Virus record (IMG/VR): IMGVR_UViG_3300020042_002824
DNA: 15,827 bases
Source: a virus
Taxonomy: Duplodnaviria > Heunggongvirae > Uroviricota > Caudoviricetes
Strand: one strand, 5' to 3'
The position numbers were made by a program, and so were the translations under genes. The notes beneath the pieces were generated by a model, which was not told where the DNA came from, did not search any database, and was given only the letters and a program-made list of their open reading frames with translations. The stretch's first letter is position 1, and the number at the start of each line of letters is the position of its first letter. Shown piece after piece: positions 368 to 9,434 of the stretch.

Positions 368-1384
368 ATGAAGGATCTTAAATTTATCTGTGCTCAGCCA
401 GATGACGTCTACTATACGTGGCAAGTTCATCTATGGTTGGAAAGCTTGAAAAAGCTTGGACATTCAGACAAAGCAATTGTTTTAGTGTACACTCCTAGTT
501 TTAGAGAATACAATGGTAAGTGGGAGAAGATAATGGAACTGTATCCAGAAGCACAATTTGCTTTCTACAAGGATACAGGAGATGTTAGTCAATATTTAGG
601 AGTGTACATTCCTATTCTACGTCCATATTGCTTGATGAGATATTTTCAGGACAACCCTGATATGATCACCAAAGCAGTGTTTTACTGTGACTGTGACGTA
701 ATCTTCACAGATAAATTTAACGTTGATGAGTTTAAAGATGATGATATAAACTATCTCTCTGATACAAACAGTTATATCAACGCTTCATATTTTGATAGTA
801 AAATAAAAGATGTGCTTCCAGAGAAGCTGGAGGAATACAAGACAAGAGATGTTCTAGCTGAACTTGCAAGTTTAGTAGGCATCAATAGAGAAATAGCTGA
901 AGCTAACAATGAACACTCAGGAGGAGCGCAATATTTCTTAAAGAATGTAGATTCTGATTTCTGGAAGAAGGTGATGAATGATTGTGTTCTGATTCGTGTC
1001 TACTTACAGAATATAAATAAAGAGTTCTTCAAAGATGAGAACAAAGGGTTTCAAAGCTGGTGTGCAGATATGTGGGCTGTGCTATGGAACGTTTGGCTTA
1101 GAGGACAAGAGACAAAGAACATTCCTGAATTGGAATTCTGTTGGTCTTCAGATCCTATTGAGAAGCTAGAAAGAACAACAATATTACATAATGCAGGTAT
1201 TACAGGACAACACAATATGGGTTATCCTGCCTTCTACAAAGGAGCCTACCACGCTGGTAAAGATCCTTTTCAAGACACACATTTAGATGTGGTGTTGAAT
1301 GATGAGAAGTCTAAGAAGTATGCCAATCATTATTATGTAACACAACTATTAGAAATAAAAAACAAATATAATTTAAATTATTAA
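368..1384 (+). CDS. GT-A fold glycosyltransferase, HPAT/SERGT1 (GT95/GT96)-like candidate peptide O-glycosyltransferase (338 aa)
   Basis: DxD motif YCDCDVIF, plus DDVYYTWQV, YIPILRPYCL, SWCADMWAVLW and ILHNAG in the same order as the motifs I recall for plant HPAT (SVYNTWQC, YVVLNRPW, EPDH, GWVLEMYAY, IIHYTYG). Confidence 0.7.
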   Translation: MKDLKFICAQPDDVYYTWQVHLWLESLKKLGHSDKAIVLVYTPSFREYNGKWEKIMELYPEAQFAFYKDTGDVSQYLGVYIPILRPYCLMRYFQDNPDMITKAVFYCDCDVIFTDKFNVDEFKDDDINYLSDTNSYINASYFDSKIKDVLPEKLEEYKTRDVLAELASLVGINREIAEANNEHSGGAQYFLKNVDSDFWKKVMNDCVLIRVYLQNINKEFFKDENKGFQSWCADMWAVLWNVWLRGQETKNIPELEFCWSSDPIEKLERTTILHNAGITGQHNMGYPAFYKGAYHAGKDPFQDTHLDVVLNDEKSKKYANHYYVTQLLEIKNKYNLNY

Positions 1385-1393
1385 TTATTAATT

Positions 1394-1606
1394 ATGGCCT
1401 CAATTAACTCTCGCCCTCTCAAAGCATATGTGCGCTTTGATGGTACTGGAAGAATCGTTCCAAGCAGCCTAATTCTAAGAAGAAAAATGCCTAAAGTGGG
1501 TAAATGGAAAGAGATTCCAGCTTACGAATGTTGTAATCCAACAACTACAACTACTACAACCACAGTAGCCCCAACAACAACAACTACAACTACTGTCCCA
1601 GGATAG
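1394..1606 (+). CDS. Thr-rich (mucin-like) small protein, paralog 1 (70 aa)
   Basis: 40-aa domain LKAYVRFDGTGR...WKEIPAYECCN followed by P-T8-VAP-T7-VPG. Confidence 0.8.
   Translation: MASINSRPLKAYVRFDGTGRIVPSSLILRRKMPKVGKWKEIPAYECCNPTTTTTTTTVAPTTTTTTTVPG
1538..1597 (+). repeat. Poly-Thr codon tract (ACN)n, two blocks
   Basis: Mixed ACA/ACT/ACC codons encoding P-T8-VAP-T7-V. Confidence 0.9.
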
Positions 1607-1623
1607 TATAAAACTAATATAAA

Positions 1624-2016
1624 ATGGCAAATCAAAGTAAATTAAAAGCATACGTACGATATGATGGTACAGGTAGAGTGATTAGTGGTAGTTTGATCTT
1701 ACAAAGATTCAAACCTGCTGTAGGTAATTGGGTGGAGATTGATGCTAGTGAATGTTGTAATTACGTTCCTACCACCACCACTACAACCACTGCTACTCCT
1801 ACTACTACCACAACTACTACTGTTCTTTCTGGATGTTTAGAGTATAATGTTGTAGTACCTGATGGTGGAAGTGGAACACTTAGTGGTGTTGATTGTGTTG
1901 GAAATCCTTTTGGACCAGTAACTCTTACAGGACCTGTTGATCAAAATTATTGTTTTGAGAGCATAAGTTCAACTGGAGACGTTACTATAACACTAGTAGG
2001 ACCTTGTAACCCATAA
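1624..2016 (+). CDS. Thr-rich (mucin-like) protein, paralog 2, with Cys-containing C-terminal domain (130 aa)
   Basis: Same 40-aa N-domain (27/40 identical to paralog 1 by hand alignment), then P-T7-ATP-T7-V, then a ~60-aa beta-rich domain with 4 Cys. Confidence 0.85.
   Translation: MANQSKLKAYVRYDGTGRVISGSLILQRFKPAVGNWVEIDASECCNYVPTTTTTTTATPTTTTTTTVLSGCLEYNVVVPDGGSGTLSGVDCVGNPFGPVTLTGPVDQNYCFESISSTGDVTITLVGPCNP
1768..1824 (+). repeat. Poly-Thr codon tract (ACN)n, two blocks
   Basis: Mixed ACC/ACT/ACA codons encoding P-T7-ATP-T7-V. Confidence 0.9.
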
Positions 2017-2032
2017 TAAAAATCAATATAGA

Positions 2033-2437
2033 ATGGCAAAATCATTATTCCCAGATGAGATGATAAGATCAGGGGAACTAAACTTGGAAACAATAGCTGG
2101 GAAGCTTACACATTTCCATGAGCAATTACACTTAACTCATTGGCAGACAAAGAGTTATGCTGAGCATCAAGCTCTAGGAGCATTGTACGATTATGTACAG
2201 GATTTCAAAGATGGTGTAATTGAAAAGCTTATGGGATATACAGGTAAAAGACCTGCTCCATACAAGATAGAACCTCTTACAAATTGTACAGGGGATGAAT
2301 GTGTGTCAAAACTTTTATCTTTTGCATCCTCTTTAAAAAGCTATGCTGAAGCAAACAGCTATCACGACATTGCAAATCTAGCAGATGCGTTGTCTGGTGA
2401 AGCTGCAAAAACTAAATACTTATTAACCTTGTCTTAA
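2033..2437 (+). CDS. Ferritin-like / Dps-like four-helix-bundle protein (DUF5856-like, 134 aa)
   Basis: HLTHWQTKSYAEHQALGALYD...DGVIEKLMG parallels the Dps HW...H...LY...D..AE pattern. The C-terminal helix DIANLADALSGEAAKTKYLL matches Dps helix 4. Confidence 0.7.
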   Translation: MAKSLFPDEMIRSGELNLETIAGKLTHFHEQLHLTHWQTKSYAEHQALGALYDYVQDFKDGVIEKLMGYTGKRPAPYKIEPLTNCTGDECVSKLLSFASSLKSYAEANSYHDIANLADALSGEAAKTKYLLTLS

Positions 2438-2727
2438 TGCAAATTAACAAGAAATTTTTCCCAGAGGTGATGCAAGATAACGAACTTGCTTATTTTGCTC
2501 ACCTCGAAGGAATTATTGCTTCAGTGGATGAACTCTCTATATTAGAGATAACTAAAAACCCCAACTCCTATCATTTTAGATTGGCTGCCTCTGTGCCCAA
2601 GTATAATGACATGTTACTTGAGGAACTATTGAAGTTCCATAACATGTTTCACATTAAGCTAGATCTTAGCAAAAGCATTAAAAGCTCTGCTACTATCACG
2701 TTTGAAATAAATTTGGAGAATTCATAA
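2437..2727 (+). CDS. Hypothetical protein (96 aa)
   Basis: ORF coupled to the upstream gene by a TAATG overlap. Confidence 0.75.
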   Translation: MQINKKFFPEVMQDNELAYFAHLEGIIASVDELSILEITKNPNSYHFRLAASVPKYNDMLLEELLKFHNMFHIKLDLSKSIKSSATITFEINLENS

Positions 2728-2743
2728 TAAATACATATCTTTG
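2712..2743 (+). promoter_or_regulatory. Bacteroidota primary-sigma promoter TTTG-N20-TATCTTTG
   Basis: tttg at 2712-2715, a 20-nt spacer, TATCTTTG at 2736-2743. Exact match to the established Bacteroides/Flavobacterium -33/-7 consensus, ~20 nt upstream of ATG 2765. Confidence 0.7.
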
Positions 2744-2764
2744 TATTTAAAAAAAATTACAACT

Positions 2765-3040
2765 ATGTCAGAAGAAATCAACCAAGTAGACGTGGCTAAT
2801 GAAGCCCCAAGTTATGACCCTAGTAAGAAATATACATGGTCAATGGAACATAACTTTACCATCTCTGGAGGAGAGTTTGGTGTAATATTAAATGCTTTAC
2901 GTGCTATTACAAATACACCAGAAGCACACGCTATCTTCTTAGCAGACAGAGCAGCAGGTGCTGTTGAATCTGTTCTAGCTAGAGGTGTAGAAGCAGGTAT
3001 TGTTAAAGAAGTTGAAGAATCTCCTAAAGGTACATTATAA
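2765..3040 (+). CDS. Hypothetical acidic protein (91 aa; ATG start MSEEINQ preferred over TTG 2741)
   Basis: The TTG at 2741 lies inside the -7 promoter box; ATG 2765 has an A-rich leader. Confidence 0.75.
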   Translation: MSEEINQVDVANEAPSYDPSKKYTWSMEHNFTISGGEFGVILNALRAITNTPEAHAIFLADRAAGAVESVLARGVEAGIVKEVEESPKGTL

Positions 3041-3189
3041 TGGCAAAAGAAATGATTAAACGCAAGGATGGTTCTGTTTCACAACGTGGTTTGTGGGATA
3101 ACATTCGTGCTGCTAAAGGATCTGGCAAGAAACCAACAGCTGCTATGCTAAAGCAAGAAAAGAAAATAAAAGCTAAAACTAAAAAATAA
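3040..3189 (+). CDS. Small basic protein (49 aa), missed by the ORF track
   Basis: MAKEMIKRKDGSVSQRGLWDNIRAAKGSGKKPTAAMLKQEKKIKAKTKK. TAATG overlaps at both ends; 16 K/R versus 4 D/E. Confidence 0.8.
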   Translation: MAKEMIKRKDGSVSQRGLWDNIRAAKGSGKKPTAAMLKQEKKIKAKTKK

Positions 3190-3545
3190 TGGCAAAGATT
3201 AAAAAAGCTGCTATGGGTAGCATGTCAGGATTGAAAGCTTCTGATAAGCGTGTAGGTCCTGTAGATCCACTAGGTGCTTGGACTAAAGTTCAAGAGAATA
3301 CATTAGCAGATGCTAGAATGACTCCTAAGTTAAAGAAAGATAAAGAACTTGGTGCCACCAAAATGGAAGGTGGTGGTAAGGTGGGACGTTCTGAGAAGTC
3401 TTATGGCTTGGACAAGAAAACACCTGCATACAAAGACATCAACCCTGGAAGTTTCAGAAAAGCTGCTTTAAAGCGTGAATCTGAATTAATAGAAAAACGC
3501 AGTGGTGAAATGGCTCCTAAGTTAAAATCTTCTAAAAAGAAATAA
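3189..3545 (+). CDS. Lys-rich basic protein, putative DNA-binding/core protein (118 aa)
   Basis: Starts MAKIKKAAMG, has internal KMEGGG, ends KKK. Confidence 0.75.
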   Translation: MAKIKKAAMGSMSGLKASDKRVGPVDPLGAWTKVQENTLADARMTPKLKKDKELGATKMEGGGKVGRSEKSYGLDKKTPAYKDINPGSFRKAALKRESELIEKRSGEMAPKLKSSKKK

Positions 3546-3546
3546 C

Positions 3547-3918
3547 ATGGCAACTATTAAGAAAGCACAAACTGGTGCTGGAGTTCCTAAAGGAATGGTT
3601 CGTGGTGAAATGACAGGCAAGCTTATTAAGAAGTCTGTTCAAGACAAACGAGATATTGACATGGCTGATGCTTTAGATAAGCAAGCTGGTAAGGGCAAGT
3701 ATGCTCCTAAACCTAAAGGTCTAAACTTTGATAAGAAAAGTTTTGATAAACTACCTGCGTTAAAGACCAAAGCTAAAGATGGTAAATGGATTCAAAAGGC
3801 TGTTAATCCAGCCCATAAAGGATATTGTACACCAATGACCAAAGCTACATGTACTCCTAAGCGTAAAGCTTTAGCTAAGACATTTAAAGCAATGGGCAGA
3901 GCTAGAAAAGGTAAATAA
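3547..3918 (+). CDS. Lys-rich basic protein, putative DNA-binding/core protein (123 aa)
   Basis: Starts MATIKKAQTG. C-terminal module KAKDG-KWIQKAVNPAHKGYC...C...KALAKTFK. Confidence 0.75.
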   Translation: MATIKKAQTGAGVPKGMVRGEMTGKLIKKSVQDKRDIDMADALDKQAGKGKYAPKPKGLNFDKKSFDKLPALKTKAKDGKWIQKAVNPAHKGYCTPMTKATCTPKRKALAKTFKAMGRARKGK

Positions 3919-3919
3919 C

Positions 3920-4564
3920 ATGGCTAGAATTCCTAAAACAAAAGTTTATAACCCACAGAAGGCAGAAGCCTATGTAGGTAAAGGGGTTCTCAGAAATGGA
4001 GACACCATTACAGCTATTAAAGGTGCTATAACACCTGTTCCTAATGGCCACCTTATAAAGAAAGATGGTACATCATTAAAGAATGGTAGTAAGATTGTTA
4101 AAGCTGGTGGTCAAACACATAAAGTGTTTAAGAAGAAAGTTGATAAAGGTATAGGTGATAAAGGGGATATAGTTGTAGATCATACAGCTGGTCCTTCTGC
4201 TGGTAAATGGGATAAGATTAACCTTACTAAGAAATCTAAAGCTAAGACTGTTAAACAAGGTGTTGCTTCTGTAAAGAAGTGGCATAGAGAAAATCCTATG
4301 ATGAAGAATGGTGGATCTACACCAGCTTGGCAACGTAAAGAGGGTAAAAGTTCTACAGGTGGTTTAAACGCTAAAGGTAGAGCTTCTTATAACAGAGCTA
4401 ACCCAGGTAAACCAGGTCTTAAAGCTCCTCAACCTGAAGGAGGTTCTCGCAAGAAATCATTCTGTGCTAGAATGTCAGGGATGAAAAAGAAACTCACAAG
4501 TGCTAAGACAGCAAATGATCCTAATAGTAGAATCAATAAGTCTTTGCGTAAATGGAAATGCTAA
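3920..4564 (+). CDS. Modular basic protein with C-terminal DUF6321-like module (214 aa)
   Basis: Modules separated by LRNGD/LKNGS/VKAGG/MKNGG. The C-terminal STPAWQRKEGK...GGLNAKGRASYN...RKKSFCARMSG...SRINKSLRKWKC matches a recurrent phage family (recalled as DUF6321). Confidence 0.7.
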   Translation: MARIPKTKVYNPQKAEAYVGKGVLRNGDTITAIKGAITPVPNGHLIKKDGTSLKNGSKIVKAGGQTHKVFKKKVDKGIGDKGDIVVDHTAGPSAGKWDKINLTKKSKAKTVKQGVASVKKWHRENPMMKNGGSTPAWQRKEGKSSTGGLNAKGRASYNRANPGKPGLKAPQPEGGSRKKSFCARMSGMKKKLTSAKTANDPNSRINKSLRKWKC

Positions 4565-4585
4565 ATTTAAAATAAAATAATCAAA

Positions 4586-5209
4586 ATGGCAAAGATGAAA
4601 AAATACCAAGGTGGTGGAAATGTAGATCCTAGGGTGGCTGCGTTCTTAAAGAAAAGAGCTGCTTCAGACACTACTAAAATGTACAACAGAGGTGAAATGT
4701 TAGAAACCATTAATGCAATAACTGCAGGTAAGATTAAACCTCGTGTAGATAAACCTATGGCTTCTGGTCAAGGCACTAAGAAATATGCTACAGTTAATAA
4801 AGGTGATACCACTTATATGAGCAAAGGAGATTTTGAAAAGAAATATGCACAGAAGAAAGCTGGTGGTAAAATTAAGAAAGCTAAATCTGGTGGTTCTTTT
4901 CCTGACTTAAACAAAGATGGTAAGATTACACAAGCTGACATCCTTAAAGGACGTGGTGTTATTAAAAATGGTGCTGCTCTTAAAAAACAAGCTGCAATAG
5001 CAATTGCTATGAAGAAAGCTGGTAAAACACCTAAGAAGATGATGAAATCTGGTGGTACATTATCTGCTCCTAAGAAAGATGGTTTATCTATGGAATTAGG
5101 TACTTACACAAGACAAATTGGTAAAAACTACACTGGTAAAAATGTTGTTAACAAAGGTGCTAAGGCTAAAATGGGTAAGTCTGTAGGTAAATGTAAATAT
5201 GGCTGTTAA
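4586..5209 (+). CDS. Modular basic protein with EF-hand-like loop (207 aa)
   Basis: Starts MAKMKKYQGGG, with repeated KKAGG/AKSGG/IKNGA/MKSGG/AKMGK and a DLNKDGKITQAD loop. Confidence 0.75.
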   Translation: MAKMKKYQGGGNVDPRVAAFLKKRAASDTTKMYNRGEMLETINAITAGKIKPRVDKPMASGQGTKKYATVNKGDTTYMSKGDFEKKYAQKKAGGKIKKAKSGGSFPDLNKDGKITQADILKGRGVIKNGAALKKQAAIAIAMKKAGKTPKKMMKSGGTLSAPKKDGLSMELGTYTRQIGKNYTGKNVVNKGAKAKMGKSVGKCKYGC

Positions 5210-5220
5210 AACCAACAATT

Positions 5221-5499
5221 ATGGCAAAGATAAAAAAAGCACAGTCTGCAATGGTTGATCAAGACAGACAATGGAAGGTGAATTCAGCAATGGATACACT
5301 TCTTCGCTACAATGAGTTATTAGCTGATAAAGCTTTAATGGCTGATGTACAAAAGAAAGCTCAAGATCAATTAAGCACTGTTACTAATACTCTTAAAATG
5401 GGCGGTAAGGTAACTAAAAAGGCTGTTTCTAAAAAACCTATGGCTAAGAAAGCTATGGTTAAGAAAATAGCTAAAAAAGTTGTAGCTAAAAAGAAATAA
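5221..5499 (+). CDS. Basic protein with histone H1-like C-terminal tail (92 aa)
   Basis: Starts MAKIKKAQS. After LKMGG comes KVTKKAVSKKPMAKKAMVKKIAKKVVAKKK (14 K in 30 aa, no acidic residue). Confidence 0.75.
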   Translation: MAKIKKAQSAMVDQDRQWKVNSAMDTLLRYNELLADKALMADVQKKAQDQLSTVTNTLKMGGKVTKKAVSKKPMAKKAMVKKIAKKVVAKKK

Positions 5500-5705
5500 T
5501 GAAATCAACTAAAGTAACTAGTAAACAAGCAAAGTCAGTAAAGCCAATGACTGCAGGTAAAGCTAAAGGATCAGGTACACCAAGACCTGCACCTAAGGTG
5601 GCTCCTCCTAAACCAGTCAATGGTAATTATATGAAGGAAGCTGATACACCTCTTAGATTGAAAAGTAAAATGTGGCCTCTTAAACAAAAGAGGTTATCAA
5701 AATAA
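5499..5705 (+). CDS. Small Lys/Pro-rich basic protein (68 aa)
   Basis: TAATG coupling to the upstream gene; K/P-rich composition. Confidence 0.7.
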   Translation: MKSTKVTSKQAKSVKPMTAGKAKGSGTPRPAPKVAPPKPVNGNYMKEADTPLRLKSKMWPLKQKRLSK

Positions 5706-5814: not shown

Positions 5815-5848
5815 AAAAAAGCCTCCCTTAAAAAAGGAGGCTTTTTTT
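5815..5848. terminator. Bidirectional intrinsic terminator between convergent gene blocks
   Basis: AAAAAA-GCCTCC-cttaaaaaa-GGAGGC-TTTTTTT: GC stem flanked by A and T tracts. Confidence 0.85.
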
Positions 5849-6383
5849 ATGATACTAATGAATTGTATACAGATAGTATCTTGTTTATGTAATGTTTATT
5901 CTTTGCTTTTTTATAACAGTTCTCAGCAAATACACCATCAGCATCTCTCCTTGATAGAACAAATCTTTCTTGATTCACTATAGATGTATGTACAATGAAG
6001 TTATGGCTATCTACATAGCTTAACTTAATTATGTTTCCATACAATCTATGTACACCACTGTTCCACAGTTGATCAAATGATATAAAATCATTGTTTAAGT
6101 CTTTGATATTGTCCCACAACTCTGGATGCATAGTTGTATCATCATCGTTGAAATATATCCAACCCTCTGTTACTAGATTAATTGCTAGGTTTCTTTGTGC
6201 ATTTCCACATACGCTTTTTACATCCTTTATACAATAAGCTTCACATTCAGGAATATCAGTTGGAATAGTCTCTGAATCAAACACAACAATCCATCTGTAA
6301 TTTTCTTTAGGTATGTTAATGCTTTCTGCAATTCTATGTAAAAAATGAGGTCTACTACAAGGAGTGATAATATTTAAGAACAT
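5847..6383 (-). CDS. GT2-like (GT-A) glycosyltransferase (178 aa)
   Basis: IITPCSRP, GNAQRNLAI, YFNDDDT (DxD) and ADGVF motifs. Confidence 0.8.
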   Translation of the reverse strand: MFLNIITPCSRPHFLHRIAESINIPKENYRWIVVFDSETIPTDIPECEAYCIKDVKSVCGNAQRNLAINLVTEGWIYFNDDDTTMHPELWDNIKDLNNDFISFDQLWNSGVHRLYGNIIKLSYVDSHNFIVHTSIVNQERFVLSRRDADGVFAENCYKKAKNKHYINKILSVYNSLVS

Positions 6384-7027
6384 GGTTTGTCATTTCTATG
6401 TAAAACTAAAAGCTTATCGTTGTCCCAACCTGGAGAAAACTTTAACTCATGATTAGCCATAATAAATGTAGCAGATGAGAAGTATTCTTTAATGTGATCC
6501 ATGGCTTCCATGTATCTGTTTTCATCTTCTCTAAGGAAGATATCTTCGATGATGATTATACCTCCTGGCTTAACACATTTGTATGCTATGTTTAAAAATC
6601 TAATCTGATCTTCAAACACGTGTGTAGAATCTTCTATGATTATGTCAAAGAAGTTATTTTTGTTGAACACGTTGTTAAGAGATTGTTCACTGGTAACATC
6701 TATATGAGTGTATGTAGCATTGTTAAGATTATCACGTATTCCTTTTTGCAACTTATCATCATGATATTCATAACCAAACAATGTTGCATTAGGGAAATAT
6801 TCTCTCCAACATAACATAGAATGATTATCTAATATACCCACCTCACCTATTGTAATCTCTTTGTAACGAAGATTTGAAAACAATAAGTTATATATGGAAG
6901 TGTAAGCATGTCTATGTAAATGAGGATGGTTATGATAAGGACACTTGTCTGTAGGATACTTAACAGCAAGTTTACATAAGTCTGTATTAGAATGTGTAGA
7001 GTCAATACTTAGTCTATTTATTTGCAT
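6374..7027 (-). CDS. Class I SAM-dependent methyltransferase, MycE/sugar O-methyltransferase-like (217 aa)
   Basis: YPTDK..H.YT.IY, IGEVGI, CWREYFPNA, FDIIIEDSTH and VKPGGIIIIED motifs. Confidence 0.8.
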   Translation of the reverse strand: MQINRLSIDSTHSNTDLCKLAVKYPTDKCPYHNHPHLHRHAYTSIYNLLFSNLRYKEITIGEVGILDNHSMLCWREYFPNATLFGYEYHDDKLQKGIRDNLNNATYTHIDVTSEQSLNNVFNKNNFFDIIIEDSTHVFEDQIRFLNIAYKCVKPGGIIIIEDIFLREDENRYMEAMDHIKEYFSSATFIMANHELKFSPGWDNDKLLVLHRNDKPCS

Positions 7028-7769
7028 TGATAAAATCTTTTAACATTTGTGAATAGTCTTTACTCCAATGAGGAACTAGTTTAACTTCTCCTGTAGGAAC
7101 TTTTCCTTTGATTCTTTCTGATTCAATGTGAGCACTGTGTCTTTGTATAGCGTTAAGCTTTCCAGGATGGTCTGTACCCTCACCACTCATGTGATAACCC
7201 CTACCACCCCACATATAAAACCAACTAGCTTCTTCCTTAGGAGGTTTAGCAAATAGTCTTCCTCCATATGCGTTTATTGCTTCAATGAATGTCATATCAT
7301 ATCCAGCATTTTCAAGAGGATGTCCTCCTATAGCTTTCCAAGCTGACTTTCTAAAAACAATACCAGAGTTACCTATCCAACCAACTTGTTCAATACCTGT
7401 AATGTGACATAACACTCCTGTTTCCCAGTGAAGAATGTTCACCTTATCAGTCATGTATTTAGCTACATTCTTTAAATGGTGTGGTAGAGCTACATCATCA
7501 TCATCCCATTGGCATATAATATCTCCTTGACAACGCTCTGTAGCATAGTTTTCTTTCGCTCCTATAGTATCATATCCCTTAACTAGGTTAACTATCTTAA
7601 CTTGAGGATGATCAAATACAAGAGTTTGTAAAGGATAGTCATTAACTATTATAAGCTCACACTTATCTGCAGGATAGTCCTGCTTGAGGAAAGACTCAAT
7701 ACTCTCCTCAAGCGTAGCTACCCTTCCATAAGTTATACATTTACATGATATAAATGGAAGTGAGTTCAT
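7014..7769 (-). CDS. GT2 family glycosyltransferase (251 aa)
   Basis: ITYGR...LEESIESFLKQDY, ELIIVND, IGAKENY and GDIICQWDDDD motifs. Confidence 0.85.
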   Translation of the reverse strand: MNSLPFISCKCITYGRVATLEESIESFLKQDYPADKCELIIVNDYPLQTLVFDHPQVKIVNLVKGYDTIGAKENYATERCQGDIICQWDDDDVALPHHLKNVAKYMTDKVNILHWETGVLCHITGIEQVGWIGNSGIVFRKSAWKAIGGHPLENAGYDMTFIEAINAYGGRLFAKPPKEEASWFYMWGGRGYHMSGEGTDHPGKLNAIQRHSAHIESERIKGKVPTGEVKLVPHWSKDYSQMLKDFINANK

Positions 7770-8594: not shown

Positions 8595-9049
8595 TGTATT
8601 ATATTTATTTGGTTGTAAAAAGAATTTGTTAAATGTTGTACCTCATATGCAAACGCTTCTTCTGTCTCTGAATTAAGTTCCATACCTGTCCAATACATTA
8701 TGTTCAAAGCTGTATGAAATATCTCATGTGCTATAACACCTTGATCTTCTGTGCTAGCCATCCATATAATAGGAGGTTTACCATCTATTGTAGGAAATGA
8801 TACAGCCCTAGCATCAAAGTCTGCAGCTGTCACTGTACTATCTAAATTATCTCTTACATATTTAGCAGCAAATGCTGTATCATCTGTAATTAAGACATTT
8901 ACATCCATGTCAAATGTATCTCCACTAAGAGTAATTAATTGATATTTAGTAGTGATGTTTGTATCATCAGACATTGCAAAATACAATATTGCTACACAAG
9001 CAAAAGCACATACTAAAAATACCAATAAATCAATTTTAATGTATTTCAT
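8591..9049 (-). CDS. Membrane-anchored zincin-like metalloprotein (152 aa)
   Basis: N-terminal hydrophobic helix LLVFLVCAFACVAILYFAM; AHEIFH (HExxH) plus downstream EEAFAY. Confidence 0.65.
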   Translation of the reverse strand: MKYIKIDLLVFLVCAFACVAILYFAMSDDTNITTKYQLITLSGDTFDMDVNVLITDDTAFAAKYVRDNLDSTVTAADFDARAVSFPTIDGKPPIIWMASTEDQGVIAHEIFHTALNIMYWTGMELNSETEEAFAYEVQHLTNSFYNQINIIQ

Positions 9050-9434
9050 ATTTCTGTTTTAATTTTTCACGTCTTTTGTTTACTTCCTCATACCTGTACA
9101 TGTCACTTTCTACATTAGTGTGTTCATCTAATGTCAAAAGTATGATATTTTCTTCATCTAAAGAAGCTTGAGGGTACTTTTCTTTGGGTAATATGTGATG
9201 AAAGAATACTGACAAAGGCTCTTTACCTAGATAGTCCATACTCACTTCTGAATAATGGAGCTTCTTCCTCCAGATTTGTAAGAAAAACTGTTGCATTTCT
9301 GATATATCTCGAATTACCCTCTCTTTTTTGACAGATTTTGTCAAATTTTGTGTAGCAATTCGTTTTCTAGGCTTGTGCTTAAAACAGTATTCTCCCTCAC
9401 AGTTTTTACCACATGTCTTACACTGTGTCTTCAT
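9036..9434 (-). CDS. HNH endonuclease-like protein with N-terminal Zn finger (132 aa)
   Basis: CKTCGKNC....CFKH at the N-terminus; HHILPKEKYP..SLDEENIILLTLDEH beta-beta-alpha-metal motif. Confidence 0.7.
   Translation of the reverse strand: MKTQCKTCGKNCEGEYCFKHKPRKRIATQNLTKSVKKERVIRDISEMQQFFLQIWRKKLHYSEVSMDYLGKEPLSVFFHHILPKEKYPQASLDEENIILLTLDEHTNVESDMYRYEEVNKRREKLKQKYEIH

What the first reader, a model, noticed from the sequence alone, without database searches (positions are those of the whole stretch)
368..2016. Candidate phage protein O-glycosylation system: HPAT/SERGT1-like transferase directly upstream of mucin-like poly-Thr proteins
Seen: the 338-aa ORF has a DxD motif and four further ordered motifs (VYYTWQV, YIPILRPY, SWCADMWAVLW, ILHNAG). 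It is followed after 9 nt by two proteins with conserved P-T7/8-xxP-T7-V tracts. Known (from memory): plant HPAT (GT95) and SERGT1 (GT96) add the first sugar directly to hydroxyl amino acids in repetitive peptides and share these motif positions. Some actinobacteriophages glycosylate virion proteins with their own transferases. Inference: enzyme and substrate are encoded side by side, giving bottle-brush glycosylated virion appendages (glycan shield against antibodies, proteases or host defences, or an adhesion aid). I know of no description of such a pairing in Bacteroidota phages.
Basis: partly seen in the sequence, partly recalled or inferred. Interest (0 to 1): 0.85.

Follow-up and report, generated by a model that had tools for sequence, protein, structure and literature searches.

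The report
Phage sugar-transferase beside poly-threonine proteins
A freshwater crAss-like phage encodes an unannotated sugar-adding enzyme, folded most like the plant enzymes that glycosylate cell-wall proteins, directly upstream of two small proteins with pure threonine runs; the same pairing recurs in very different phages, so the enzyme probably sugar-coats those runs, though no sugar has been shown.

Summary
ORF 368-1384 (338 aa) belongs to PHROG 4417 (function unknown) and has no Pfam or PDB sequence match. Its model (pLDDT 97) is a GT-A glycosyltransferase with an invariant DxD motif. The nearest characterised folds are plant and algal HPAT (GT95) and SERGT1 (GT96), at TM 0.59-0.71. GT8 enzymes such as glycogenin score lower, at TM 0.46-0.57.

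The window's only four Thr7-8 runs lie in the two ORFs that begin 9 nt downstream. Across 186 loci with a family member, a same-strand poly-Thr tract lies within 500 nt upstream in 67% and within 500 nt downstream in 37%. Beyond 5 kb the rate is 0-10% per bin upstream and 0% downstream. In Enterococcus, Lactobacillus, Staphylococcus, Clostridium and Chryseobacterium phages the enzyme gene follows a capsid, tail-tube or other gene ending in a poly-Thr tail. Tail-tube orthologues in phages without the enzyme lack that tail.

Fused relatives join the domain to GT2, GT6, GT32-like and methyltransferase domains, and the window has a GT2-methyltransferase-GT2 cassette.

Most likely it starts O-glycans on poly-Thr tags of phage surface proteins. 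Glycosylation itself is untested. This scan reached the same reading on at least 50 other genomes. I found no paper describing the family.

The parts
368..1384 (+). P0001, 338-aa soluble GT-A glycosyltransferase of PHROG 4417. DxD motif at D108/D110. Proposed poly-Thr peptide O-glycosyltransferase.
   Evidence: phrog_4417 E 1.3e-55. No Pfam or PDB sequence hit. AF2 model pLDDT 97.2. Fold hits. Invariant residues.
1394..1606 (+). P0002, 70 aa: conserved N-terminal domain (residues about 8-48) followed only by a P-T8-VAP-T7-VPG tail. Proposed acceptor.
1541..1594 (+). The two poly-Thr tracts of P0002: T8 at 1541-1564 and T7 at 1574-1594.
1624..2016 (+). P0003, 130 aa: the same N-terminal domain, a P-T7-ATP-T7 linker, and a 64-residue Cys-containing C-terminal payload. 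Proposed acceptor.
   Evidence: Model: N-domain pLDDT 79-84, the rest below 50.
1771..1821 (+). The two poly-Thr tracts of P0003: T7 at 1771-1791 and T7 at 1801-1821.
7014..7769 (-). 251-aa GT2 glycosyltransferase, a likely chain-extending enzyme of the same pathway (inferred).
   Evidence: PF00535 E 1.2e-11. Homologous to the N-terminal domain of relatives in which it is fused to a P0001-like domain (P0203 E 1e-6, P0214 E 3e-8).
6374..7027 (-). 217-aa class I methyltransferase (Methyltransf_24/31), a possible sugar O-methyltransferase (inferred).
   Evidence: Methyltransf_24 domains are fused to P0001-like domains in P0142 and P0178. The pairwise match to P0142 is not significant.
5847..6383 (-). 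178-aa GT2-like protein with a DDD motif; weak assignment.
   Evidence: PF00535 E 0.004, below the gathering score.

Best explanation
P0001 is a soluble, phage-encoded GT-A glycosyltransferase that uses a nucleotide sugar and a divalent metal held by D108/D110, and probably H274. It transfers the first sugar onto the hydroxyl groups of consecutive threonines (and serines) in poly-Thr tags of the phage's own late proteins, inside the infected cell before or during assembly. In this window the tags are on P0002 and P0003, which share an N-terminal anchor domain. P0002 is nothing but anchor plus tag. The GT2-methyltransferase-GT2 cassette at 5847-7769 probably extends and methylates the glycan. 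The product would be mucin-like, bottle-brush stalks or tails on surface-exposed phage proteins. Shown here: the fold, the catalytic motif, the gene linkage, the co-variation of enzyme and tag, and the domain fusions. Inferred: the acceptor, the initiating role, the donor sugar (unknown), virion location, and biological benefit (shielding, stability or adhesion).
For: Fold. The model is high-confidence GT-A (pLDDT 97). The closest characterised families are peptide O-glycosyltransferases HPAT and SERGT1. Other protein-glycosylating GT-A enzymes also match: glycogenin Z 14.3, Skp1 AgtA Z 13.9, GlyE of serine-rich-repeat protein glycosylation Z 12.9, and PBCV-1 A64R Z 11.0. PF23452 HPAT is the only Pfam family hit by more than one family member (2 of 63, best E 0.012).

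Linkage. The window's only four Thr tracts lie within 440 nt downstream of the gene. In 186 loci, same-strand tracts peak at 67% in the 500 nt upstream and 37% in the 500 nt downstream. Bins beyond 5 kb hold 0-10% upstream and 0% downstream. The pattern holds in 31 of 40 enzyme clusters at 70% identity and 9 of 9 at 50%.

Different carrier proteins in independent lineages. These include the phiFL1A tail tube, Semele gp074 and gp075, the PMBT8 tail protein, Clostridium FA88 ORF18, the protein directly upstream of the enzyme gene (capsid by gene order, my inference) and the tail-tube orthologue in R3.3, a 429-aa Chryseobacterium phage protein, and multi-module Cys-rich proteins in metagenomic phages.

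Natural experiment in one tail-tube family. Phages with the enzyme (phiFL1A, R3.3) have the Thr tail. Six phages without it (GBSVK-C, Javan505, phiJL-1, ATCC8014, SPP1, phiLpTT2) do not. Four enzyme-carrying records served as positive controls for the search.

The tag itself. About half of the 85 unique relatives of P0002/P0003 end in the tract with no payload, so the tract is more than a linker.

Surface location in relatives. In a complete 115.8-kb relative, the only other runs of seven or more consecutive Thr codons are in a 1272-aa virion structural protein. The other tagged family shares its N-terminus with a collagen-like tail fibre.

Fusions. Relatives join the domain to GT2, GT6, Gly_transf_sug and methyltransferase domains, and one of these is homologous to the window's GT2.

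Precedent. The experimentally glycosylated mycobacteriophage Che8 also carries GT2 and Methyltransf_24 domains.
Against: No experiment or mass-spectrometry data show any sugar on these tracts. The fold says glycosyltransferase, not which acceptor. Sequence similarity to HPAT is marginal: P0001 itself has no Pfam hit. GT8-clan enzymes mostly act on sugar acceptors, so P0001 could be an extending enzyme. Because many loci place the gene in the structural module, part of the linkage could reflect module position. 20 of 186 loci show no tract within 1.5 kb. Virion association of P0002 and P0003 is not shown; their payload has no detectable relatives and only the N-domain models with moderate confidence. 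None of the listed relatives is fused to a Thr tract.
Confidence: 0.7

Rival explanations
1. The tracts are glycosylated, but P0001 is an extending enzyme that adds a sugar onto a sugar already placed by another enzyme, such as one of the GT2 proteins or a host enzyme. It would then not be the initiating peptide transferase.
For: The best solved-structure matches include sugar-acceptor GT8 enzymes (LgtC, WbbM) and GlyE, which extends a GlcNAc primer on serine-rich repeat proteins. The window also has two GT2-like genes.
Against: In the small Firmicutes phages inspected, P0001's homologue is the only glycosyltransferase seen in the 8.8-kb structural stretch I read; whole genomes were not screened for others. 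The nearest characterised folds, HPAT and SERGT1, both place the first sugar on the peptide (their activity is from my knowledge).
Confidence: 0.12
2. P0001 glycosylates something other than phage protein, such as host envelope polysaccharide, teichoic acid or phage DNA. The poly-Thr tracts would be unmodified flexible linkers that happen to lie in the same late module.
For: Phage glycosyltransferases for DNA and for host O-antigen or teichoic acid are well known (my knowledge). Poly-Thr/Pro linkers exist without proof of modification. The fold does not identify the acceptor.
Against: The positional peak is very sharp: 67% in the adjacent 500 nt, 0-10% beyond 5 kb upstream and 0% beyond 5 kb downstream. 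It holds across carrier proteins of unrelated families and across hosts from three bacterial phyla. Tail-tube orthologues lose the tail when the enzyme is absent. Many carriers end in the tract, so it links nothing. No membrane segment is seen, and no hydroxymethyl-pyrimidine pathway gene is seen in the window.
Confidence: 0.1
3. The ORFs after the enzyme are not real genes, and the Thr runs are translated simple ACN repeats.
For: The tracts are ACN repeats. Depth at 1765-1848 in metagenome contigs is about 100-fold above the neighbouring bins, which shows shared repeat words.
Against: The 45-residue N-domain is conserved with 10 invariant columns across 38 diverged copies, while the tracts keep frame and vary in codon use. 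There are 85 unique family members, always on the enzyme's strand.
Confidence: 0.02

Closest known systems
Plant and algal hydroxyproline O-arabinosyltransferases (HPAT1-3, RDN, PLENTY; CAZy GT95; Pfam PF23452) and peptidyl-serine alpha-galactosyltransferase SERGT1/SGT1 (GT96)
   Same: They are the nearest characterised folds: TM 0.57-0.71 over nearly the whole protein. Both use a GT-A fold with a DxD motif. By my knowledge, they put the first sugar directly on hydroxyl amino acids in repetitive, low-complexity peptides (extensins, arabinogalactan proteins, CLE peptides). There is a weak PF23452 sequence signal in relatives.
   Different: Identity is 11-15%, and P0001 does not reach the Pfam threshold. 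There is no N-terminal membrane anchor; the alignment starts at residue 1-2, against residue 60-70 in HPATs. It would act in the cytoplasm, not the Golgi. The proposed acceptor is poly-Thr, not Hyp or Ser-Hyp4. The donor sugar is unknown. It is encoded by phages.
Actinobacteriophage virion O-glycosylation (mycobacteriophage Che8 gp108-110; Freeman et al. 2023, Cell Host Microbe, cited in PMC11256854 and PMC13313380; the paper itself was not held)
   Same: Phage-encoded glycosyltransferases plus a methyltransferase modify the phage's own capsid and tail-tube proteins. Che8 gp108 is GT2 plus Methyltransf_24/TylF and gp109 is GT2, the same domain classes as the window's cassette. In Firmicutes relatives of P0001 the tagged proteins are likewise capsid and tail-tube subunits.
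   Different: Che8 has no P0001-family member and adds a GT25 enzyme. Its capsid and tail proteins have no poly-Thr tail. There is no significant pairwise similarity between the window's GT2 or methyltransferase and gp108. The Che8 system is proven by experiment; this one is not.
GT8-clan retaining GT-A enzymes: glycogenin, LgtC, GlyE, Skp1 AgtA, UGGT (GT24)
   Same: These are the best solved-structure matches: Foldseek E 5e-7, and VIA Z 12.9-14.3 with 218-249 residues aligned. The pattern DxD ... Q ... H is invariant, as in GT8 active sites (my knowledge). Glycogenin, GlyE and AgtA act on proteins or protein-bound glycans.
   Different: TM is only 0.44-0.49 by query, lower than for HPAT and SERGT1. 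There is no PF01501 hit. P0001 is about 80 residues longer, with extra helices.
Mucin-type O-glycosylation and serine-rich-repeat adhesin glycosylation (GalNAc-transferases GT27; GtfA/B)
   Same: The logic is the same: dense Ser/Thr tracts flanked by Pro, modified by a dedicated initiating transferase encoded with or near the substrate.
   Different: The enzyme families are different (GT27 has a lectin domain; GtfA/B is GT-B). No homology was detected here.

Membership tests
PHROG 4417 (phage protein family, function unknown) | Match to the family HMM over its full length | tested here: met
   E 1.3e-55, residues 4-321 on profile positions 1-287 of 293.
GT-A fold nucleotide-sugar glycosyltransferases | Rossmann-like GT-A fold | tested here: met
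   Model pLDDT 97.2. At least 256 PDB chains match at E <= 0.001, and every chain in the 50 rows shown is a glycosyltransferase (probability 1.0). Glycogenin gives Z 14.3.
GT-A fold nucleotide-sugar glycosyltransferases | Conserved DxD metal- and nucleotide-binding motif | tested here: met
   D108 and D110 are invariant in 63 sequences of 31-49% identity. Their position in the active site was not checked in 3D.
CAZy GT95 / Pfam PF23452 (HPAT) | Sequence match to PF23452 at the gathering score | tested here: not met
   No hit for P0001 at E <= 1. Only 2 of 63 relatives hit, best E 0.012.
CAZy GT95 / Pfam PF23452 (HPAT) | Closest fold among characterised families | tested here: met
   HPAT1-3, PLENTY and RDN score TM 0.57-0.61. 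HPAT-like AFDB clusters score 0.55-0.65. A Chlorophyta cluster that is 100% PF23452 scores TM 0.71, rmsd 3.2 over 282 residues.
CAZy GT95 / Pfam PF23452 (HPAT) | Type II membrane anchor and Golgi location | tested here: not met
   P0001 aligns from residue 1-2 to HPAT residues 57-68 onward. Its N-terminus is the first beta strand, with no hydrophobic segment in the sequence.
CAZy GT95 / Pfam PF23452 (HPAT) | Transfers L-arabinofuranose to hydroxyproline | not testable with these tools
   Needs an enzyme assay. The proposed acceptor here is Thr.
CAZy GT96 (SERGT1/SGT1) | Fold similarity to the catalytic domain | tested here: met
   Arabidopsis SERGT1 is the top Swiss-Prot hit (E 5.8e-10, TM 0.59, residues 391-702). 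The Chlamydomonas enzyme scores TM 0.51.
CAZy GT96 (SERGT1/SGT1) | Galactosylates Ser in Ser-Hyp motifs | not testable with these tools
   Needs an enzyme assay.
CAZy GT8 (Pfam PF01501) | Sequence match to PF01501 | tested here: not met
   No hit for P0001 or for any of the 63 relatives. A profile search of PDB sequences finds no GT8 chain.
Actinobacteriophage virion glycosylation system (Che8 type) | Homologous glycosyltransferase set | tested here: not met
   No P0001-family match in the Che8 genome at E <= 1. Only the GT2 and Methyltransf_24 domain classes are shared, with no significant pairwise match.
Actinobacteriophage virion glycosylation system (Che8 type) | Glycans demonstrated on virion proteins | not testable with these tools
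   Needs glycostain and mass spectrometry of virions.

The most novel reading that the evidence does not exclude
Poly-threonine runs are a portable, genetically encoded 'glycosylate me' tag read by one soluble enzyme family. Phages of at least three bacterial phyla have attached it independently to capsids, tail tubes, fibres and free-standing anchor proteins. If so, virion glycosylation would be common in nature rather than an actinobacteriophage oddity. It would also give a minimal two-part tag-plus-enzyme system for cytoplasmic O-glycosylation in bacteria. The family may be the prokaryotic-virus sister of the plant extensin glycosyltransferases GT95 and GT96.
Probability: 0.55. Interest if true: 0.85.

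Novelty: new variant of a known kind. Interest (0 to 1): 0.8.

Why it matters
Phage virion glycosylation has been shown by experiment only in mycobacteriophages, where it alters antibody recognition. This enzyme family has over 2,000 clusters at 90% identity in the protein collection and 779 representatives at 50% identity.

It occurs in cultured phages of Enterococcus, Staphylococcus, Lactobacillus, Lactococcus, Clostridium and Chryseobacterium. The window's own stretch occurs in freshwater metagenomes from many studies.

If the family glycosylates poly-Thr tags, three things follow:
- Many therapeutic and dairy phages would carry a glycan coat that nobody has looked for. That would bear on immune clearance, stability and adsorption.
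- Poly-Thr tails would become a simple sequence predictor of glycosylated phage proteins.
- A soluble enzyme plus a short tag could be a handy tool for glycoengineering in bacteria.

It would also give the plant HPAT and SERGT1 families their first viral or prokaryotic structural relatives.

Tried and rejected
- Pfam and PDB sequence searches of P0001, and a PDB search with the family profile, gave nothing useful.
- No whole genome is held for the window.
- The C-terminal payload of P0003 has no detectable relative among longer proteins and no match to the Cys-rich modules of the 1272-aa virion protein. The Atlas feature search gave only viral hypothetical clusters.
- The P0003 model is too poor outside the N-domain (mean pLDDT 56) for a fold search.
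- No listed relative is fused to a Thr tract.
- Pairwise comparison of the window's methyltransferase with fused relative P0142 and with Che8 gp108, and of the GT2 with gp108, was not significant.
- Literature searches for phage tail or capsid glycosylation with threonine tracts, HPAT in phages, and poly-threonine in phages found no description of this family. Freeman et al. 2023 is not held.
- RNA-library contigs cover parts of the enzyme gene (158-717 and 593-1089). Contigs from RNA libraries do not prove transcription, so I do not count this as evidence.
- I did not run a complex prediction of the enzyme with its tag, because the tool description rates enzyme-substrate pairs as rarely informative.
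Full report
**What is in the window**

The 15.8-kb window is phage DNA. The minus strand carries ribonucleotide reductase, a UvsX-like recombinase, dUTPase, an exonuclease and a crAss001_48-family gene. The plus strand carries a block of small genes. Close relatives are IMG/VR contigs of 100-118 kb. Stretch 300-2100 is held at 75-99% of its sampled words in 14 runs from 12 studies, labelled freshwater, lake-water, 'fungus' and 'crustacean' metagenomes.

**The observation**

Nine nucleotides after its stop comes ORF 1394-1606 (P0002, 70 aa), then ORF 1624-2016 (P0003, 130 aa). Both open with the same 45-residue domain and continue into P-T8-VAP-T7 or P-T7-ATP-T7. A six-frame scan finds no other run of six or more Thr/Ser anywhere in the window.

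**The enzyme**

- P0001 matches PHROG 4417, function unknown, at E 1.3e-55. It has no Pfam family and no PDB sequence relative.
- The family is large: 2,119 clusters at 90% identity and 779 representatives at 50% identity.
- In 63 relatives of 31-49% identity, the invariant residues are Y80, D108, D110, Y136, Q229, F257, H274, K291 and Y323.
- With that alignment AlphaFold gives a model at pLDDT 97.2 and pTM 0.93.
- Against solved structures the best matches are GT-A glycosyltransferases of the retaining GT8 clan. They are glycogenin (Foldseek E 5e-7; VIA Z 14.3, 238 residues, rmsd 3.9), Skp1 galactosyltransferase AgtA, LgtC, the UGGT catalytic domain, WbbM and GlyE. The chlorovirus capsid glycosyltransferase A64R follows at Z 11.
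- No GT95 or GT96 chain appears among the PDB matches listed. Among predicted structures of reviewed proteins the order changes. Arabidopsis SERGT1 is first (E 5.8e-10, TM 0.59). HPAT1-3, PLENTY, RDN1/2 and NOD3 follow at TM 0.57-0.61. GT8 enzymes such as galactinol synthase and glycogenin score about 0.46.
- AFDB fold clusters agree: HPAT-like clusters score TM 0.55-0.65 against 0.47-0.49 for GT8.
- The ESM Atlas agrees too. A Chlorophyta cluster whose members all carry PF23452 scores TM 0.71, against 0.57 for a GT8 cluster.
- At sequence level the link is marginal. PF23452 is the only Pfam family hit by more than one of the 63 relatives, and only at E 0.012.
- P0001 aligns from its first residues to HPAT residues 57-68 onward. 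It therefore corresponds to the catalytic domain without the membrane anchor.

**Linkage to poly-Thr genes**

I collected 186 loci holding a family member:
- 80 are close relatives at 68-100% identity.
- 98 came from three diverged representatives.
- The rest are cultured phages.

Same-strand poly-Thr tracts occur in the 500 nt upstream of the enzyme gene in 67% of loci and in the 500 nt downstream in 37%. The rate falls to 3% by 1.5 kb downstream. Beyond 5 kb it is 0-10% per bin upstream and 0% downstream. In all, 166 of 186 loci have a tract within 1.5 kb. So do 31 of 40 enzyme clusters at 70% identity and all 9 at 50%.

The proteins that carry the tracts are not one family.
- In Enterococcus phage phiFL1A the tail-tube protein gp50 ends in a 21-residue Thr/Ser run, and the enzyme gene gp51 follows with no gap.
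- In Lactobacillus myophage Semele, two short proteins with Thr repeats precede the enzyme gene.
- In Staphylococcus phage PMBT8 the annotated tail protein ends in T17.
- In Clostridium phage FA88 the upstream ORF18 ends in a Thr tail.
- In Lacticaseibacillus phage R3.3, both the protein directly upstream of the enzyme gene (capsid by gene order, my inference) and the tail-tube orthologue end in Thr tails.
- In Chryseobacterium phage MA9V-3 the upstream 429-aa protein has an internal 23-residue Thr/Ser tract flanked by prolines.
- In metagenomic phages the upstream genes encode beads-on-a-string proteins, with small Cys-rich modules joined by Thr/Ser linkers.

**A natural experiment**

The SPP1 gp17.1-type tail-tube family gives a natural experiment. 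The orthologues align up to a shared PGExxGE motif.
- The two lineages with the enzyme (phiFL1A, R3.3) continue into a Thr tail.
- Five lineages without it (two Streptococcus prophages, phiJL-1, ATCC8014, SPP1) end in short, unrelated sequence.
- A sixth, phiLpTT2, carries about 100 further residues that look Ig-like to me by eye, not tested.

Absence of the enzyme was checked on whole records with the family profile. Four enzyme-carrying records served as positive controls, at E 1e-67 to 1e-81. The sample is small (2 against 6) and is not corrected for phylogeny.

**The tagged proteins in this phage group**

Relatives hold 85 unique proteins with the P0002/P0003 N-domain.
- 72 have Thr tracts, totalling 7 to 102 Thr/Ser residues.
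- About half are only domain plus tract.
- The rest carry unrelated payloads of up to about 370 residues.

A tract that ends the protein cannot be a mere linker.

Upstream of the enzyme gene, most relatives have a second family with a shared MAIPSRQIGW N-terminus. Some members are collagen-like tail fibres (phrog_819 and phrog_3904). Others are 47-60-residue proteins that are anchor plus Thr tail. This window has a 72-aa coiled-coil gene there instead.

In a complete 115.8-kb relative, the only other runs of seven or more consecutive Thr codons lie in a 1272-aa protein. That protein matches a virion structural family at E 1e-55. These facts point to surface proteins. Virion location of P0002 and P0003 themselves is not shown.

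**Partner enzymes**

Longer relatives fuse the P0001-like domain to GT2, GT6, Gly_transf_sug, Methyltransf_24 or radical-SAM/SPASM domains. The window's 251-aa GT2 (7014-7769) is homologous to the N-terminal domain of two such fusions, at E 1e-6 and 3e-8. That links the GT2-methyltransferase-GT2 cassette at 5847-7769 to P0001.

The mycobacteriophage Che8 virion is reported to be glycosylated (cited in PMC11256854 and PMC13313380). It carries GT2 plus Methyltransf_24/TylF, a second GT2 and a GT25. It has no P0001-family member and no Thr tails.

**Interpretation**

The fold, the invariant DxD, the sharp and repeated linkage to Thr tags on unrelated carriers, the joint presence and absence, and the fusions to sugar-pathway domains all fit one model. 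P0001 would be a cytoplasmic peptide O-glycosyltransferase that starts glycans on poly-Thr tags of the phage's late, probably surface-exposed proteins. I put this at 0.7.

The main rival is that it extends rather than starts the glycan (0.12). Next is that it serves another acceptor and the tags are plain linkers (0.1). Nothing here shows a sugar, the donor or the benefit.

**Population variation**

Contigs with an enzyme 100% identical to P0001 carry a different first downstream gene. Freshwater runs hold forms that skip P0002 or recombine between the tracts. The tagged genes are therefore swapped faster than the enzyme.

**Novelty**

I found no paper that describes this family or the enzyme-tag pairing, in a library that lacks most subscription journals. 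Phage-encoded virion glycosylation as such is known from actinobacteriophages. I therefore class this as a new variant of a known kind, with a new enzyme family and a new type of acceptor.

This scan has reached the same reading on at least 50 other genomes. I saw those notes after my own analysis, and they agree with it.

Noticed in passing
window 3040-5705 (+): A run of small lysine-rich proteins, several starting MAK(I/V)KK. One (3920-4564) has a DUF6321 C-terminal domain shared with many PHROGs of unknown function. They may be internal or DNA-associated virion proteins.
   Followed up: no
window 2033-2437 (+): A DUF5856 / Dps-ferritin-like protein (PHROG 858, 'starvation-inducible regulator') is conserved directly after the poly-Thr genes in all close relatives inspected.
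   Followed up: no
L003 and L004 (GT at 319-1338) compared with window 1394-3040: Contigs whose enzyme is 100% identical to P0001 have a 153-aa anchor-tract-payload gene where the window has the 70-aa P0002. L004 also has an extra 200-aa gene, not searched against any family, inserted after the DUF5856 gene. This looks like recent cassette exchange and insertion of a mobile gene.
   Followed up: partly
window 1384-1840, runs X3 and X8: Freshwater metagenome contigs hold variants that join 1384 to 1654 (no P0002) and 1537 to 1687, and others with extra Thr-coding letters between the tracts. Depth over 1765-1848 is about 100-fold higher than the neighbouring bins, so the ACN repeat words are shared by many other sequences in these samples.
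   Followed up: partly
L010 9105-9973; L062 8107-9257; L013 9804-9974: A second anchor family with the N-terminus MAIPSRQIGW is shared by collagen-like tail fibres and by 47-60-aa proteins that consist of anchor plus poly-Thr tail. It lies just upstream of the enzyme gene in most relatives but is absent from this window, which has a 72-aa coiled-coil gene (122-340) there.
   Followed up: partly
L186 2168-5986 (-) (complete relative G002): A 1272-aa virion structural protein (phrog_37948) whose last third is a string of small Cys-rich modules separated by Thr/Ser linkers, 65 kb from the enzyme gene.
   Followed up: partly
P0235 (658 aa) and ESM Atlas row 4 (Bacteroidota, 581 aa): In P0235 the family domain is fused to a radical-SAM/SPASM domain. 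In a cluster of Bacteroidota cellular proteins it is fused to a Glyco_transf_7C domain. The family is therefore not confined to phages.
   Followed up: no
window 9036-9434 (-): A free-standing HNH endonuclease gene sits between the dUTPase gene and a small gene in the replication block.
   Followed up: no
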